The notes beneath the pieces are model-generated. The model did not search any database and was not told where the DNA came from. It was given only the letters and a program-made list of their open reading frames with translations. Positions 58,140 through 64,000 of a stretch of 64,000 bases of DNA are shown one piece after another. This DNA comes from Escherichia coli (GTDB taxonomy: Bacteria > Pseudomonadota > Gammaproteobacteria > Enterobacterales > Enterobacteriaceae). Numbering within the stretch: position 1 is the first letter of the stretch; the number at the start of each line of letters is the position of its first letter. The stretch lies in the NCBI RefSeq assembly GCF_050920415.1, contig NZ_CP169309.1. One strand, given 5' to 3'. The position numbers and the translations under genes were made by a program.

Positions 58140-61100
58140 ATGATGGAAATTCTGCGTGGTTCGCCTGCATTGTCGGCATTCCGAATCAACAAACTGCTGG
58201 CACGTTTTCAGGCTGCCAGGCTCCCGGTTCACAATATTTACGCCGAGTATGTCCATTTTGCTGACCTCAATGCGCCGTTAAACGATGATGAGCACGCACA
58301 ACTTGAACGCCTGCTGAAATATGGCCCGGCACTCGCCAGCCACGCCCCGCAAGGTAAACTCCTGCTGGTGACCCCGCGTCCTGGTACCATCTCTCCCTGG
58401 TCTTCGAAAGCGACCGATATCGCCCATAACTGCGGGCTGCAACAGGTAAACCGCCTTGAGCGCGGCGTTGCTTACTATATAGAAGCCGGTACGCTGACCC
58501 ATGAACAATGGCAGCAGGTGACCGCTGAACTGCACGACCGCATGATGGAAACGGTCTTTTCTGCTTTAGATGATGCAGAGCAGCTGTTTGCACACCATCA
58601 ACCGACTCCGGTCACCAGCGTTGATTTGCTGGGGCAGGGACGTCAGGCGCTAATCGACGCTAACCTGCGTCTTGGCCTGGCACTGGCGGAAGATGAAATT
58701 GACTATCTGCAGGATGCATTCACAAAGCTGGGTCGTAACCCGAACGACATCGAGCTGTATATGTTCGCCCAGGCGAACTCTGAGCACTGCCGCCATAAAA
58801 TTTTTAACGCCGACTGGATTATCGACGGTGAACAACAGCCGAAATCGCTGTTCAAGATGATCAAAAACACCTTCGAAACCACGCCGGATCACGTTCTCTC
58901 GGCTTATAAAGATAACGCCGCCGTAATGGAAGGTTCTGAAGTGGGCCGCTACTTTGCTGACCACGAAACGGGCCGCTACGATTTCCATCAGGAACCGGCG
59001 CATATCCTGATGAAAGTAGAAACCCACAACCACCCAACGGCGATTTCTCCGTGGCCGGGTGCGGCAACCGGTTCCGGTGGCGAAATTCGTGATGAAGGTG
59101 CCACCGGCCGCGGCGCGAAGCCGAAAGCTGGTCTGGTCGGTTTCTCCGTATCCAACCTGCGTATTCCTGGCTTTGAACAACCGTGGGAAGAAGATTTCGG
59201 TAAGCCTGAGCGCATTGTCACCGCGCTGGACATCATGACAGAAGGTCCGCTGGGCGGCGCGGCATTTAACAACGAATTTGGTCGTCCGGCACTGAACGGC
59301 TACTTCCGTACCTATGAAGAAAAAGTGAACAGCCACAACGGCGAAGAGCTGCGCGGGTATCACAAACCGATCATGCTGGCGGGTGGGATCGGCAACATTC
59401 GCGCCGATCACGTACAAAAAGGCGAGATCAACGTCGGTGCGAAACTGGTCGTTCTCGGCGGCCCGGCAATGAACATCGGTCTTGGCGGCGGCGCGGCCTC
59501 TTCCATGGCCTCCGGCCAGTCTGACGCGGATCTCGATTTCGCGTCCGTTCAGCGCGATAACCCGGAAATGGAACGTCGCTGTCAGGAAGTGATCGACCGC
59601 TGCTGGCAGCTTGGCGACGCGAACCCGATTCTGTTTATCCACGACGTCGGCGCAGGCGGTCTTTCTAACGCCATGCCGGAGCTGGTGAGCGACGGCGGAC
59701 GCGGCGGTAAATTTGAACTGCGCGATATCCTGAGCGACGAACCGGGCATGAGCCCGCTGGAAATCTGGTGTAACGAATCCCAGGAACGCTACGTGCTGGC
59801 CGTTGCTGCCGATCAGTTACCGCTGTTTGACGAACTGTGTAAGCGTGAGCGCGCACCGTACGCGGTGATTGGTGAGGCCACCGAAGAATTACATCTTTCT
59901 CTGCACGATCGTCATTTTGATAATCAACCCATCGATCTGCCGCTCGACGTACTACTTGGCAAAACGCCGAAGATGACCCGCGATGTGCAAACGCTGAAAG
60001 CGAAAGGCGACGCGTTGTCCCGTGAAGGGATCACCATCGCTGACGCGGTGAAGCGTGTGTTACATCTGCCGACTGTGGCGGAGAAAACCTTTCTGGTGAC
60101 CATCGGCGATCGCAGCGTAACCGGCATGGTGGCGCGCGATCAGATGGTGGGTCCGTGGCAGGTGCCGGTCGCTAACTGCGCAGTCACTACCGCCAGCCTC
60201 GACAGTTACTACGGTGAAGCGATGGCAATAGGCGAACGTGCGCCAGTTGCACTGCTGGATTTCGCCGCTTCTGCCCGCCTGGCGGTCGGTGAAGCGTTAA
60301 CTAACATCGCCGCTACGCAGATTGGCGATATCAAACGCATTAAACTTTCCGCTAACTGGATGGCGGCAGCAGGTCATCCAGGTGAAGACGCGGGCCTGTA
60401 TGAAGCCGTTAAAGCGGTGGGCGAAGAGCTTTGTCCGGCGCTGGGCCTGACGATTCCGGTGGGTAAAGACTCTATGTCGATGAAAACCCGCTGGCAGGAA
60501 GGTAGCGAAGAGCGCGAAATGACCTCGCCGCTTTCGCTGGTGATTTCTGCATTTGCCCGCGTGGAAGATGTGCGTCACACCATCACGCCGCAGCTTTCTA
60601 CCGAAGATAACGCACTGCTGCTGATTGATCTGGGCAAAGGCAATAACGCGCTGGGCGCAACGGCGCTGGCGCAGGTTTATCGTCAGCTTGGCGACAAACC
60701 GGCAGATGTACGCGATGTCGCGCAACTGAAAGGCTTCTATGATGCGATTCAGGCGCTGGTTGCACAGCGTAAGCTGCTCGCGTATCACGACCGCTCTGAT
60801 GGCGGGCTGGTGGTAACGCTGGCGGAAATGGCCTTTGCTGGTCATTGCGGCATTGACGCGGATATCGCCACTCTGGGTGACGATCGCCTGGCGGCGTTGT
60901 TTAACGAAGAACTGGGGGCGGTGATTCAGGTGCGCGCTGCTGACCGTGAAGCGGTCGAAGCGGTACTGGCACAGCATGGCCTTGCTGATTGCGTCCATTA
61001 TGTTGGGCAGGCGGTTTCCGGTGACCGTTTTGTAATTACCGCCAACGGGCAGACTGTATTCAGCGAAAGCCGCACCACGTTGCGTGTCTGGTGGGCAGAA

Positions 61101-62027
61101 ACTACCTGGCAGATGCAGCGCCTGCGTGACAACCCGGAGTGTGCCGATCAGGAACATCAGGCGAAATCTAACGACGCCGATCCGGGCCTGAATGTGAAAC
61201 TGTCGTTTGATATCAACGAAGATGTGGCAGCACCGTATATTGCCACTGGTGCGCGTCCGAAAGTTGCCGTGCTGCGTGAGCAGGGGGTGAACTCGCATGT
61301 TGAAATGGCGGCAGCTTTCCACCGTGCAGGCTTCGATGCACTCGATGTGCATATGAGCGACCTGCTGGCTGGACGCACGGGCCTGGAGGATTTCCACGCT
61401 CTGGTAGCGTGCGGCGGTTTCTCCTACGGTGATGTGCTGGGTGCTGGTGAAGGCTGGGCGAAGTCTATCCTGTTCAATGACCGTGTACGCGATGAGTTTG
61501 CAACCTTCTTCCACCGTCCGCAAACGCTGGCGCTGGGGGTATGTAACGGTTGCCAGATGATGTCTAACCTACGCGAACTGATCCCAGGTAGCGAGTTGTG
61601 GCCACGTTTCGTGCGTAACACCTCCGATCGCTTTGAAGCGCGTTTCAGCCTGGTAGAAGTGACCCAAAGCCCGTCTCTGCTGTTGCAAGGGATGGTGGGT
61701 TCGCAGATGCCGATTGCTGTCTCTCACGGCGAAGGACGCGTGGAAGTGCGCGATGCGGCGCATCTGGCGGCACTGGAAAGCAAAGGGCTGGTGGCACTGC
61801 GCTATGTCGATAACTTCGGCAAAGTCACTGAAACCTACCCGGCTAACCCGAACGGTTCTCCGAATGGTATTACGGCGGTCACGACTGAAAGTGGTCGAGT
61901 CACCATTATGATGCCGCACCCGGAACGTGTTTTCCGTACTGTCAGTAACTCCTGGCATCCGGAAAACTGGGGCGAGGATGGCCCATGGATGCGTATTTTC
62001 CGCAATGCGCGTAAGCAGTTGGGGTAA
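58140..62027 (+). CDS. purL: Phosphoribosylformylglycinamidine synthase (large PurL)
   Basis: 1295-aa [46 protein letters not shown]... with C-terminal glutaminase region. Confidence 0.98.
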
Positions 62028-62049
62028 GTCGTCAAACTATTGGTTTTGC

Positions 62050-62083
62050 TGCCCGGATGTGGCATTCACGCCGCATCCGGCAT
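62050..62083. repeat. REP-like palindromic element downstream of purL
   Basis: gcccggatgtggcattcacgccgcatccggcat. Confidence 0.4.
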
Positions 62084-62105
62084 TAAACGCCGACCACTAT
62101 CATAA

Positions 62106-62130
62106 GCTCCCAGCTCCGGGAGCTTTTTTT
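62106..62130 (+). terminator. purL rho-independent terminator
   Basis: Stem gctccc/gggagc with 6-nt loop followed by T7 at 62124-62130. Confidence 0.6.
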
Positions 62131-62131
62131 G

Positions 62132-62245
62132 TGTCTGTAAATCACGACAATGGGTGGTTTACTGTGTCGCTTTTTGGCGACATTTAATTGATTGATTTTA
62201 TTTGGGTCTAATAAATTTATCTTAAGGTGTCTCTTTTTAGCGACA
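62132..62245. promoter_or_regulatory. glmY: Three GlrR (QseF) binding sites of the glmY upstream activating region
   Basis: TGTC-N10-GACA at 62132-62149, 62165-62182 and 62228-62245. Confidence 0.6.
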
Positions 62246-62334
62246 CAATGGCTGATTGACACCCAAATAGCGAAGAAGTCATAAATCCATCAAAACAACG
62301 TATAATCAGTACGTTACCAAACTATTTTATTTAT

Positions 62335-62350
62335 TGGCACAGTTACTGCA
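62335..62350 (+). promoter_or_regulatory. glmY: sigma54 promoter of glmY (overlaps a sigma70 -10 cataat)
   Basis: TGGCAC-agtta-cTGCAt with GG at -24 and GC at -12 relative to the transcript start near 62362. Confidence 0.65.
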
Positions 62351-62361
62351 TAATAGTCATC

Positions 62362-62545
62362 AGTGGCTCATTCACCGACTTATGTCAGCCCCTTCGGGAC
62401 GTGCTACATAAAATTCGAATGACGCACAACAAGGTGCCTGCCGTCCAACTTCTGATATCAGCTTAGCTATATCAACCCTCGGGCGAAACGTCGAGTTAGG
62501 CACCGCCTTATTCCATAACAAAGCCGGGTCATTCCCGGCTTTGTT
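62362..62545 (+). ncRNA. glmY: GlmY small RNA
   Basis: agtggctcattcaccgacttatgtcagccccttcgggacgtgctacataaaattcgaatgacgc... recognised as GlmY; terminator hairpin agccgggtcattcccggct 62522-62540 plus T-run; sits between purL and glrK as in K-12. Confidence 0.8.
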
Positions 62546-62603
62546 GTATCTGAACTTCCCCTCGGTTAGCATCAGGCTATTCGCGTCTGACGAGAGTAAC
62601 ACC

Positions 62604-64000
62604 TTGAAACGCTGGCCCGTTTTTCCCCGCTCATTACGACAACTGGTAATGCTGGCATTTTTGCTGATTCTGCTACCCCTGTTGGTGCTGGCATGGCAAG
62701 CCTGGCAAAGCCTGAATGCGCTTAGCGATCAGGCGGCGCTGGTTAACCGCACTACGCTTATTGATGCCCGGCGCAGTGAAGCGATGACCAACGCGGCGCT
62801 GGAGATGGAGCGTAGCTACCGTCAGTATTGCGTGCTGGATGACCCAACCCTGGCGAAGGTTTATCAAAGCCAGCGCAAGCGTTATAGCGAAATGCTCGAT
62901 GCCCACGCAGGCGTACTGCCGGACGATAAACTATACCAGGCATTGCGTCAGGACTTGAACAATCTGGCTCAACTTCAGTGTAACAACAGCGGTCCCGATG
63001 CTGCCGCCGCCGCGCGTCTGGAAGCTTTTGCCAGCGCCAATACCGAAATGGTACAGGCCACGCGCACAGTGGTGTTCTCTCGCGGACAGCAGCTTCAGCG
63101 TGAAATCGCCGAACGTGGGCAATATTTTGGTTGGCAATCGCTGGTGTTATTTCTGGTAAGTCTGGTGATGGTGCTGCTCTTCACGCGGATGATTATCGGC
63201 CCGGTGAAAAATATTGAACGGATGATCAACCGTCTGGGGGAAGGGCGTTCTCTGGGCAATAGCGTTTCGTTCAGTGGACCGAGTGAGTTACGCTCGGTTG
63301 GGCAACGTATTCTTTGGTTAAGTGAGCGCCTGTCATGGCTGGAATCCCAGCGCCATCAATTCTTAAGACATTTATCTCATGAATTAAAAACCCCGCTGGC
63401 GAGTATGCGAGAGGGCACTGAATTACTGGCTGACCAGGTTGTCGGGCCGCTTACGCCCGAGCAAAAAGAGGTGGTGAGCATCCTTGATAGCAGCAGCCGC
63501 AATTTGCAAAAACTGATCGAACAACTGCTTGATTACAACCGTAAACAGGCGGACGGTGCAGTGGAACTGGAGAGTGTAGAGTTAGCACCGCTGGTGGAAA
63601 TGGTGGTTTCTGCTCATAGCCTGCCCGCACGGGCTAAAATGATGCATACCGACGTCGATCTCAAAGCAACTGCTTGCCTGGCGGAGCCAATGCTGCTGAT
63701 GAGCGTACTGGATAATCTTTACTCCAATGCGGTGCACTACGGGGCTGAATCCGGTAACATTTGCCTTCGCAGCAGTTTACATGGCGCGCGGGTTTATATT
63801 GATGTCATCAATACGGGCACACCCATTCCGCAAGAGGAACGCGCCATGATCTTCGAACCCTTTTTTCAGGGAAGCCACCAGCGAAAAGGGGCGGTGAAGG
63901 GCAGCGGTCTGGGATTAAGCATTGCCAGGGATTGTATTCGCCGTATGCAGGGGGAACTGCATCTGGTCGACGAGAGCGGGCAAGAGGTTTGCTTCCGCAT
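62604..64000 (+). CDS. glrK: Sensor histidine kinase GlrK (QseE/YfhK), N-terminal ~465 codons; 3' end runs off the window
   Basis: Open frame from TTG 62604 to window end translating (M)KRWPVFPRSLRQLVMLAFLLILLPLLVLAWQAWQSLNALSD... with HAMP and HisKA/HATPase motifs; not in ORF track because no stop in window. Confidence 0.85.
   Translation, partial: MKRWPVFPRSLRQLVMLAFLLILLPLLVLAWQAWQSLNALSDQAALVNRTTLIDARRSEAMTNAALEMERSYRQYCVLDDPTLAKVYQSQRKRYSEMLDAHAGVLPDDKLYQALRQDLNNLAQLQCNNSGPDAAAAARLEAFASANTEMVQATRTVVFSRGQQLQREIAERGQYFGWQSLVLFLVSLVMVLLFTRMIIGPVKNIERMINRLGEGRSLGNSVSFSGPSELRSVGQRILWLSERLSWLESQRHQFLRHLSHELKTPLASMREGTELLADQVVGPLTPEQKEVVSILDSSSRNLQKLIEQLLDYNRKQADGAVELESVELAPLVEMVVSAHSLPARAKMMHTDVDLKATACLAEPMLLMSVLDNLYSNAVHYGAESGNICLRSSLHGARVYIDVINTGTPIPQEERAMIFEPFFQGSHQRKGAVKGSGLGLSIARDCIRRMQGELHLVDESGQEVCFR

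What the first reader, a model, noticed from the sequence alone, without database searches (positions are those of the whole stretch)
62586..62620. glrK appears to initiate at TTG
The GlrK frame (KRWPVFPRSLRQLVMLAF...) has no in-frame ATG or GTG near the conserved N-terminus; the only plausible initiator is TTG at 62604.
Basis: seen in the sequence. Interest (0 to 1): 0.12.

Follow-up and report, generated by a model that had tools for sequence, protein, structure and literature searches.

The report
glrK starts at a TTG codon
The sensor-kinase gene glrK (qseE) in this E. coli window begins with the less common start codon TTG, as the reference strain K-12 already annotates and as related enteric bacteria also show, so the finding is correct but ordinary.

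Summary
TTG lies at 62604-62606, in frame with GlrK/QseE (459/465 residues identical to K-12 GlrK). K-12 MG1655 annotates glrK (b2556, NP_417051.2) from the same TTG in identical surrounding sequence. NCBI's PGAP pipeline does the same in all six other E. coli genomes checked. At least 5422 of 5425 complete E. coli genomes carry TTG here.

Across 90 Enterobacterales sequences this codon position is TTG (81) or GTG (9), never ATG and never another leucine codon. The coding pattern (third codon positions vary, first and second do not) begins at the next codon.

Some public gene calls use them. They are poor candidates:
- Met16 is Thr/Ile/Val in 18 of 80 species.
- The PRSLxQLV motif upstream of Met16 persists in homologues of about 30% identity.
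- The upstream TTGs sit in the glmY terminator stem, upstream of the published transcription start (25 bp before the start codon).

UUG starts about 3% of E. coli genes. I found no direct initiation-mapping data. Verdict: real, already known, low interest.

The parts
62604..62606 (+). TTG initiation codon of glrK/qseE
   Evidence: Read directly. Same codon as the K-12 annotated start and the PGAP start. The column is TTG 81 / GTG 9 of 90 orthologues.
62592..62596 (+). Weak Shine-Dalgarno-like GAGAG, 7 nt before the TTG
   Evidence: Read directly. An SD-like triplet lies at -16..-5 in 80/80 Enterobacteriaceae sequences. Mean duplex energy with the 16S rRNA 3' end is -3.7 kcal/mol, against -1.7 upstream of codon 16.
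62579..62603 (+). Inferred 25-nt 5' untranslated region of the qseEGF mRNA (transcription start about 62579)
   Evidence: [quoted passage not shown] I mapped that position onto the window. The region folds no better than shuffled sequence (z +1.2).
62567..62572 (+). -10 element TAGCAT of the sigma-70 qseEGF promoter
   Evidence: TAGCAT or a close variant lies 36-39 nt before the start column in 77 of 80 species. A K. pneumoniae transcription start was mapped 7 nt after the same motif (PMC3415461, supplementary file 5). The promoter is described as immediately downstream of glmY.
62544..62549 (+). Possible -35 element TTGTAT (3 of 6 matches, 17-nt spacer), overlapping the glmY terminator tail
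   Evidence: Inferred from spacing only. The consensus scan found no promoter at its threshold, which fits the low promoter activity reported.
62607..62648 (+). Codons 2-15, KRWPVFPRSLRQLV: basic cytoplasmic segment before the first transmembrane helix
   Evidence: Third-position-only variation starts at codon 2. FPRSLRQLV is almost invariant, with 2-7 codons per column. A PRSLxQLV-like motif is kept in homologues down to about 30% identity.
62649..62651 (+). In-frame ATG (Met16): alternative start, rejected
   Evidence: Met is replaced by Thr/Ile/Val in 18 of 80 species, and 12 of 80 have no ATG in the first 30 codons. No SD lies upstream. The codon sits in a 6-bp stem in the predicted fold. 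Some public gene calls of 460 aa use it.
62541..62546 (+). Two upstream in-frame TTG codons: alternative starts, rejected
   Evidence: They lie in the 3' arm of the glmY terminator hairpin (62515-62547, -23.4 kcal/mol, z -8.3). They are upstream of the published transcription start. The region between them and 62604 shows no coding-type conservation.
62362..62545 (+). glmY small RNA gene, directly upstream
   Evidence: Rfam RF00128, 145 bits, at 62362-62509, plus the terminator hairpin. It corresponds to K-12 glmY b4441.
62604..64000 (+). glrK/qseE coding sequence, cut off by the window end (first 465 of 475 codons)
   Evidence: 459/465 residues identical to K-12 GlrK. HAMP, HisKA and HATPase_c domains are present.

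Best explanation
TTG at 62604 is the real, evolutionarily conserved translation start of the sensor histidine kinase GlrK (QseE). The qseEGF mRNA starts about 25 nt upstream, from a weak sigma-70 promoter whose -10 element (TAGCAT, 62567-62572) lies just after the glmY terminator. A weak Shine-Dalgarno-like GAGAG, 7 nt before the TTG, positions the 30S ribosomal subunit. Initiator tRNA reads UUG as formyl-methionine, giving MKRWPVFPRSLRQLV..., a short basic cytoplasmic segment ahead of the first membrane helix. Shown here: the codon, its annotation in K-12, its conservation, and the onset of the coding signature. Taken from the literature: the transcription start. Inferred: that the ribosome actually initiates there. 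A weak promoter, weak SD and UUG together would keep kinase synthesis low.
For: The K-12 annotation starts at the same TTG in identical sequence. PGAP does the same in six E. coli genomes. At least 5422 of 5425 complete E. coli genomes have TTG there. The column is TTG (74) or GTG (6) in 80 Enterobacteriaceae sequences. It is TTG or GTG in 10 further sequences, including Klebsiella-type, Yersinia, Serratia, Xenorhabdus and Pantoea. Internal invariant leucine columns use 3-6 codons each, with TTG at 8.8%. Codon-position entropy switches from non-coding to coding exactly after this codon. The published transcription start is 25 bp upstream of the start codon, and the published His259 numbering matches a TTG start. 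The motif upstream of Met16 is conserved in distant homologues. The initiation region is predicted to be unstructured.
Against: I found no direct experimental mapping of the GlrK N-terminus or of initiating ribosomes. The supplements I could read for four initiation-site or N-terminomics studies do not list glrK, and others were not held. The SD is weak (-3.4 kcal/mol in the window). In Yersinia, Serratia, Xenorhabdus, Buttiauxella, Cedecea and Klebsiella an in-frame ATG lies 3 or 6 codons upstream of the TTG column. Annotators use it there, so the start need not be the same codon in every lineage.
Confidence: 0.93

Rival explanations
1. Translation really begins at ATG 62649 (Met16), giving a 460-residue kinase, and the 15 codons upstream are untranslated leader.
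For: ATG is the strongest start codon. Several public gene calls (Logan, ENA and some NCBI records) give 460-462 aa products starting MLAFLL....
Against: Codons 2-15 show the coding signature, and FPRSLRQLV is conserved with synonymous changes. Met16 is Thr/Ile/Val in 18 of 80 species, and 12 species have no ATG in the first 30 codons. PRSLxQLV persists in homologues of about 30% identity. No SD precedes ATG16, and it is paired in the predicted fold. Losing K2, R3, R9 and R12 would remove the basic stretch before the first membrane helix (inference from the positive-inside rule, my own knowledge).
Confidence: 0.02
2. Translation begins further upstream, at TTG 62541 or 62544, giving a product of about 496 residues that overlaps the glmY terminator.
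For: The frame is open back to 62412. Long forms of 497 and 538 aa exist in public records, for example Citrobacter rodentium ICC168.
Against: These codons lie inside the strong glmY terminator hairpin and upstream of the published qseEGF transcription start. The stretch between them and 62604 varies at all three codon positions. 51 of 80 species have an in-frame stop within 25 codons upstream, and 19 within 9 codons.
Confidence: 0.01
3. Dual initiation: the TTG gives the main full-length kinase, and ATG16 gives a minor N-terminally truncated isoform.
For: In-frame internal starts are used in some E. coli genes (abstract of 10.1101/520783, listed). ATG16 is present in all the E. coli sequences compared.
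Against: Met16 is not conserved across genera. There is no SD, and no data show a second product.
Confidence: 0.04

Closest known systems
glrK (yfhK, qseE; b2556, NP_417051.2) of E. coli K-12 MG1655
   Same: Same gene, same TTG start, and identical sequence from -40 through codon 20. The protein is 459/465 identical. The neighbours match (purL, glmY upstream).
   Different: Only six amino-acid differences further along the protein, and a few base differences in glmY. Nothing differs at the start site.
The class of E. coli genes that start with UUG (about 3% of genes)
   Same: A canonical near-cognate start read by initiator tRNA. It gives lower output than AUG: the three canonical starts span 10-100% of AUG (10.1101/063800).
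   Different: Nothing distinctive. The only notable point is how strictly the weak start is kept across orthologues (TTG or GTG, never ATG).
qseE of Yersinia, Serratia and Xenorhabdus (annotated MISLKRW...)
   Same: The same TTG column, the same downstream KRW..FPRSLRQLV, and in Yersinia and Serratia the same TAGCAT -10 element upstream; the Xenorhabdus contig ends too close to the gene to show it.
   Different: An in-frame ATG lies 3 codons upstream (GAG ATG ATT TCG TTG), where E. coli has GAG AGT AAC ACC TTG. Annotators start at that ATG, so TTG would be Leu4 there.

Membership tests
GlrK/QseE sensor histidine kinase (orthologue of E. coli b2556) | Near-identity to K-12 GlrK over its length | tested here: met
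   459/465 identical with no gaps. The last 10 codons lie beyond the window.
GlrK/QseE sensor histidine kinase (orthologue of E. coli b2556) | HAMP, HisKA and HATPase_c architecture, with the phospho-accepting His259 | tested here: met
   Pfam finds HAMP at 191-243, HisKA at 249-315 and HATPase_c at 361-463. The His of SHELKTP is residue 259 when counted from the TTG, matching PMC6075780.
GlrK/QseE sensor histidine kinase (orthologue of E. coli b2556) | Genomic context purL - glmY - glrK - qseG - glrR | tested here: met
   purL is at 58140-62027 and glmY at 62362-62509. qseG follows in a strain identical to the window over the 701 bases compared and in K-12. The window itself ends inside glrK.
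GlrK/QseE sensor histidine kinase (orthologue of E. coli b2556) | Match to a family-specific curated HMM | tested here: not met
   Among the best 25 NCBIfam matches shown, none is GlrK-specific and none reaches its own cut-off; the matches are CreC, CpxA and other kinases. Identity therefore rests on orthology to K-12, not on an HMM.
Genes initiated at a UUG codon | In-frame TTG preceded by an SD-like element at 5-10 nt, within the transcript | tested here: met
   GAGAG lies 7 nt upstream. The published transcription start is 25 bp upstream.
Genes initiated at a UUG codon | The orthologous column holds only start-type codons, and coding constraint begins immediately after it | tested here: met
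   81 TTG and 9 GTG of 90. The entropy profile is, and the contrast with internal Leu codons is.
Genes initiated at a UUG codon | Direct evidence of initiation (N-terminal peptide, toeprint or initiation-arrested ribosome footprint) | not testable with these tools
   glrK, qseE, yfhK and b2556 are absent from the held supplements of INRI-seq, TRAINSPOTTER and TetRP. The Ribo-RET and eLife supplements are not held.

The most novel reading that the evidence does not exclude
The weak start may itself be under selection. In 90 sequences from at least four Enterobacterales families the start column is TTG or GTG and never ATG, although at least five separate T-to-G changes occurred. It sits behind a weak promoter and a weak SD. 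This could mean that GlrK synthesis must be held low, or be kept sensitive to IF3, to preserve the kinase-to-regulator balance. A related possibility is that the Enterobacteriaceae start moved from an ancestral ATG three codons upstream (still present in Yersinia, Serratia and Xenorhabdus) onto what was a Leu4 TTG codon.
Probability: 0.3. Interest if true: 0.2.

Novelty: already known. Interest (0 to 1): 0.06.

Why it matters
It matters little for biology: UUG starts are a textbook minority class, and this one is already in the reference annotation. The practical value is for annotation. Automated gene callers disagree at this locus, giving products of 460, 475-478, 484, 497 and 538 residues in public databases. 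The long forms wrongly run through the glmY small-RNA gene. The comparative evidence here shows which call is right for Escherichia, Citrobacter, Salmonella and Enterobacter. The strict retention of a weak start codon is a small, testable hint that expression of this sensor kinase is deliberately kept low.

Tried and rejected
1. Direct initiation data. I searched the held supplements of INRI-seq (PMC9825163), TRAINSPOTTER (PMC13245402) and TetRP (PMC4909307) for glrK/qseE/yfhK/b2556 and found no entries. The Ribo-RET preprint and the eLife paper had no held supplements, and the Mol Cell paper is not held.

2. Literature search for 'glrK' with 'start codon', and for 'qseE' with 'TTG'. No paper discusses the TTG start explicitly.

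3. The consensus promoter scan found no sigma-70 site in 62000-62800. The real promoter is too weak for its threshold and was located from the literature and from conservation.

4. NCBIfam scan. Among the best 25 matches shown there was no GlrK-specific model, only generic kinase matches below their cut-offs.

5. The representative-library search mostly returned fragments and homologues of 38% identity or less. It was useful only for showing that the PRSLxQLV motif is ancient.

6. ATG16 and the upstream TTGs were considered as starts and rejected (see the rival explanations).

7. The in-frame near-cognate codons CTG 62550 and ATC 62571 were rejected because they lie upstream of the transcription start and in sequence without coding conservation.

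Full report
WHAT IS THERE. The last 1.4 kb of the window encodes the N-terminal 465 of the 475 residues of the sensor histidine kinase GlrK (also called QseE or YfhK). The translated frame reads ...SDESNT-L-KRWPVFPRSLRQLVMLAFLLILLPLLVLAW..., and the TTG is at 62604-62606. The protein is 459/465 identical to K-12 GlrK and has HAMP, HisKA and HATPase_c domains. Upstream lie purL (58140-62027) and the small-RNA gene glmY. glmY matches Rfam RF00128 at 145 bits over 62362-62509. Its terminator hairpin spans 62515-62547 (-23.4 kcal/mol, z -8.3).

CHECKING THE OBSERVATION. The GlrK frame is open from 62412, after a TAA at 62409. Between that point and 62604 there is no ATG or GTG. There are two TTGs (62541, 62544), a CTG (62550) and an ATC (62571). 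Downstream, the first ATG is at 62649, which is codon 16.

ANNOTATION. K-12 MG1655 (NC_000913.3) annotates glrK b2556 (NP_417051.2) at 2689671..2691098 on the minus strand. Its first codon is TTG, and the surrounding sequence is identical to the window. NCBI's PGAP pipeline starts qseE at the same TTG in a strain identical to the window over the 701 bases compared and in UTI89, an E2348/69 derivative, NCCP15648, UTAK-2 and Eco_23-2678.

E. COLI POPULATION. The locus is present in 5425 of 5426 complete genomes. Four mutually exclusive 41-base queries centred on the TTG matched 4358, 162, 878 and 24 genomes. Megablast needs a 28-base exact word, so each such match must contain the TTG intact. 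That gives at least 5422 of 5425 genomes. The variants nearby are A-to-G at -3, AAA-to-AAC (K2N, in UTI89 and 161 other genomes with the same 41 bases) or AAA-to-AAG at codon 2, and CCC-to-CCT at codon 5.

COMPARATIVE EVIDENCE. A scan of one genome per species returned 80 Enterobacteriaceae loci, of which 79 include the start region.
- With the window added, the start column is TTG in 74 sequences and GTG in 6, and nothing else.
- Per-position entropy shows no codon periodicity upstream. From the very next codon onward, positions 1 and 2 are nearly fixed and position 3 varies. Codons 7-14 (PRSLRQLV) are almost invariant in amino acid, yet each uses 2-7 different codons.
- Thirteen invariant internal leucine columns each use 3-6 codons, and TTG is only 8.8% of them. 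An internal leucine would therefore not stay TTG in 74 of 74 cases, nor alternate with GTG alone.
- Met16 is Thr, Ile or Val in 18 of 80 sequences, and 12 have no ATG anywhere in the first 30 codons.
- 19 of 80 have an in-frame stop within nine codons upstream, and 51 within 25 codons.
- Ten further sequences extend the column to 81 TTG and 9 GTG of 90, with no ATG. They comprise a Klebsiella-type sequence, Yersinia enterocolitica, Serratia rubidaea, Xenorhabdus bovienii, Pantoea septica, one unnamed complete genome and four metagenomic or read-archive contigs.
- Homologues of only about 30-38% identity still carry a PRSLxQLV-like motif just before the first hydrophobic helix. Residues 8-15 therefore belong to the protein.

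TRANSCRIPT AND RIBOSOME SITE. Goepel et al. [quoted passage not shown] Their His259 numbering fits a TTG start.
- This places the transcription start near 62579, 7 nt after TAGCAT (62567-62572). TAGCAT or a near variant lies 36-39 nt before the start column in 77 of 80 species.
- In K. pneumoniae a transcription start was mapped experimentally 7 nt after the same motif (PMC3415461, supplementary file 5).
- The upstream TTGs, CTG and ATC are therefore absent from the primary transcript.
- A GAGAG lies 7 nt before the TTG. An SD-like triplet is present at -16..-5 in 80 of 80 sequences, but it pairs weakly (mean -3.7 kcal/mol, against -1.7 before codon 16).
- The 90 nt from the inferred transcription start fold no better than shuffled sequence (z +1.2), and ATG16 sits in a 6-bp stem.

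HOW IT WORKS. Shown: the codon, its conservation, the onset of coding constraint, and agreement with the reference annotation. From the literature: the transcript 5' end. Inferred: 30S binding at the weak SD, and decoding of UUG by initiator tRNA to give fMet-Lys-Arg-Trp.... The basic residues K2, R3, R9 and R12 before the membrane helix fit a cytoplasmic N-terminus (positive-inside rule, my own knowledge). A weak promoter, weak SD and UUG start together predict low kinase output. The three canonical start codons give 10-100% of AUG output, and UUG starts about 3% of E. coli genes (10.1101/063800).

WHAT IS MISSING. I found no direct initiation mapping or N-terminal peptide for GlrK.

COMPARISON AND NOVELTY. 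This is the known K-12 glrK start, and UUG initiation is a standard minority class. Two side observations are mildly interesting.
- Public gene calls at this locus disagree, with products of 460, 475-478, 484, 497 and 538 aa. The longest run back through glmY.
- Yersinia, Serratia and Xenorhabdus, and also Buttiauxella, Cedecea and Dryocola, carry an in-frame ATG three codons upstream (GAG ATG xxx xxx TTG), where E. coli has GAG AGT AAC ACC TTG. Klebsiella has an ATG six codons upstream, only about 5 nt from the mapped transcription start. The TTG is still strictly kept in these lineages. Either it is the start there too, or the start has shifted between lineages. I could not resolve this.

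VERDICT. The feature is already known and of low interest.

Noticed in passing
window 62567-62572 (and 62544-62549): A motif GTTAGCATC is conserved across genera about 37 nt before the glrK start. It fits the -10 element of the published weak sigma-70 qseEGF promoter. The likely -35 (TTGTAT) overlaps the tail of the glmY terminator, so terminator and promoter share sequence.
   Followed up: yes
public protein records P0006/P0008 (460 aa), P0012/P0015 (497 aa), P0014/P0073 (538-539 aa), P0112 (484 aa), P0085/P0115 (478 aa): Automated gene calls for this kinase disagree on the start. Some use ATG16. Some extend upstream through the glmY terminator, or through most of glmY itself, producing spurious N-terminal extensions.
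   Followed up: partly
L094 (Yersinia), L095 (Serratia), L096 (Xenorhabdus), L092, L097, L090; L067, L069, L074, L077, L079, L060: An in-frame ATG lies three codons upstream of the conserved TTG column (GAG ATG ATT TCG TTG), where E. coli has GAG AGT AAC ACC TTG. This may mark a start-codon shift between lineages, or the ATG may be incidental within the SD region. Not resolved.
   Followed up: partly
L088 683-721 (Klebsiella-type contig); PMC3415461 supplementary file 5: In Klebsiella the annotated ATG start lies only about 5 nt from the experimentally mapped transcription start, while the conserved TTG column with a GAGAC upstream lies 18 nt further on. The Klebsiella annotation may therefore start six codons too early.
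   Followed up: partly
homologues P0138, P0145, P0149, P0173, P0188 and others: A short motif PRSLxQLV immediately before the first transmembrane helix is kept in GlrK-like kinases down to about 30% identity. I know of no assigned function for it.
   Followed up: no
window 62335-62361: TGGCAC-N5-CTGCA, with an overlapping CATAAT, sits just before the glmY 5' end at 62362. This fits the published overlapping sigma-54 and sigma-70 glmY promoters (PMC4152352).
   Followed up: no
window 62362-62545 against K-12: The window's glmY differs from K-12 at four positions, including an A-to-C change in the terminator loop (GGGTCATTCCC against GGGTAATTCCC). Only 18 of 5425 E. coli genomes are at least 99% identical to the window over 62300-63000, so the strain belongs to a minority lineage.
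   Followed up: no
L083, L087 (UTI89 and Eco_23-2678), codon 2: 162 E. coli genomes, among them UTI89, Eco_23-2678 and the type strain DSM 30083, carry AAA-to-AAC (Lys2Asn) immediately after the start codon, together with A-to-G at -3.
   Followed up: partly
window 62104-62125: A terminator-like hairpin with a T-run lies about 80 nt after the purL stop codon. It is presumably the purL terminator.
   Followed up: no
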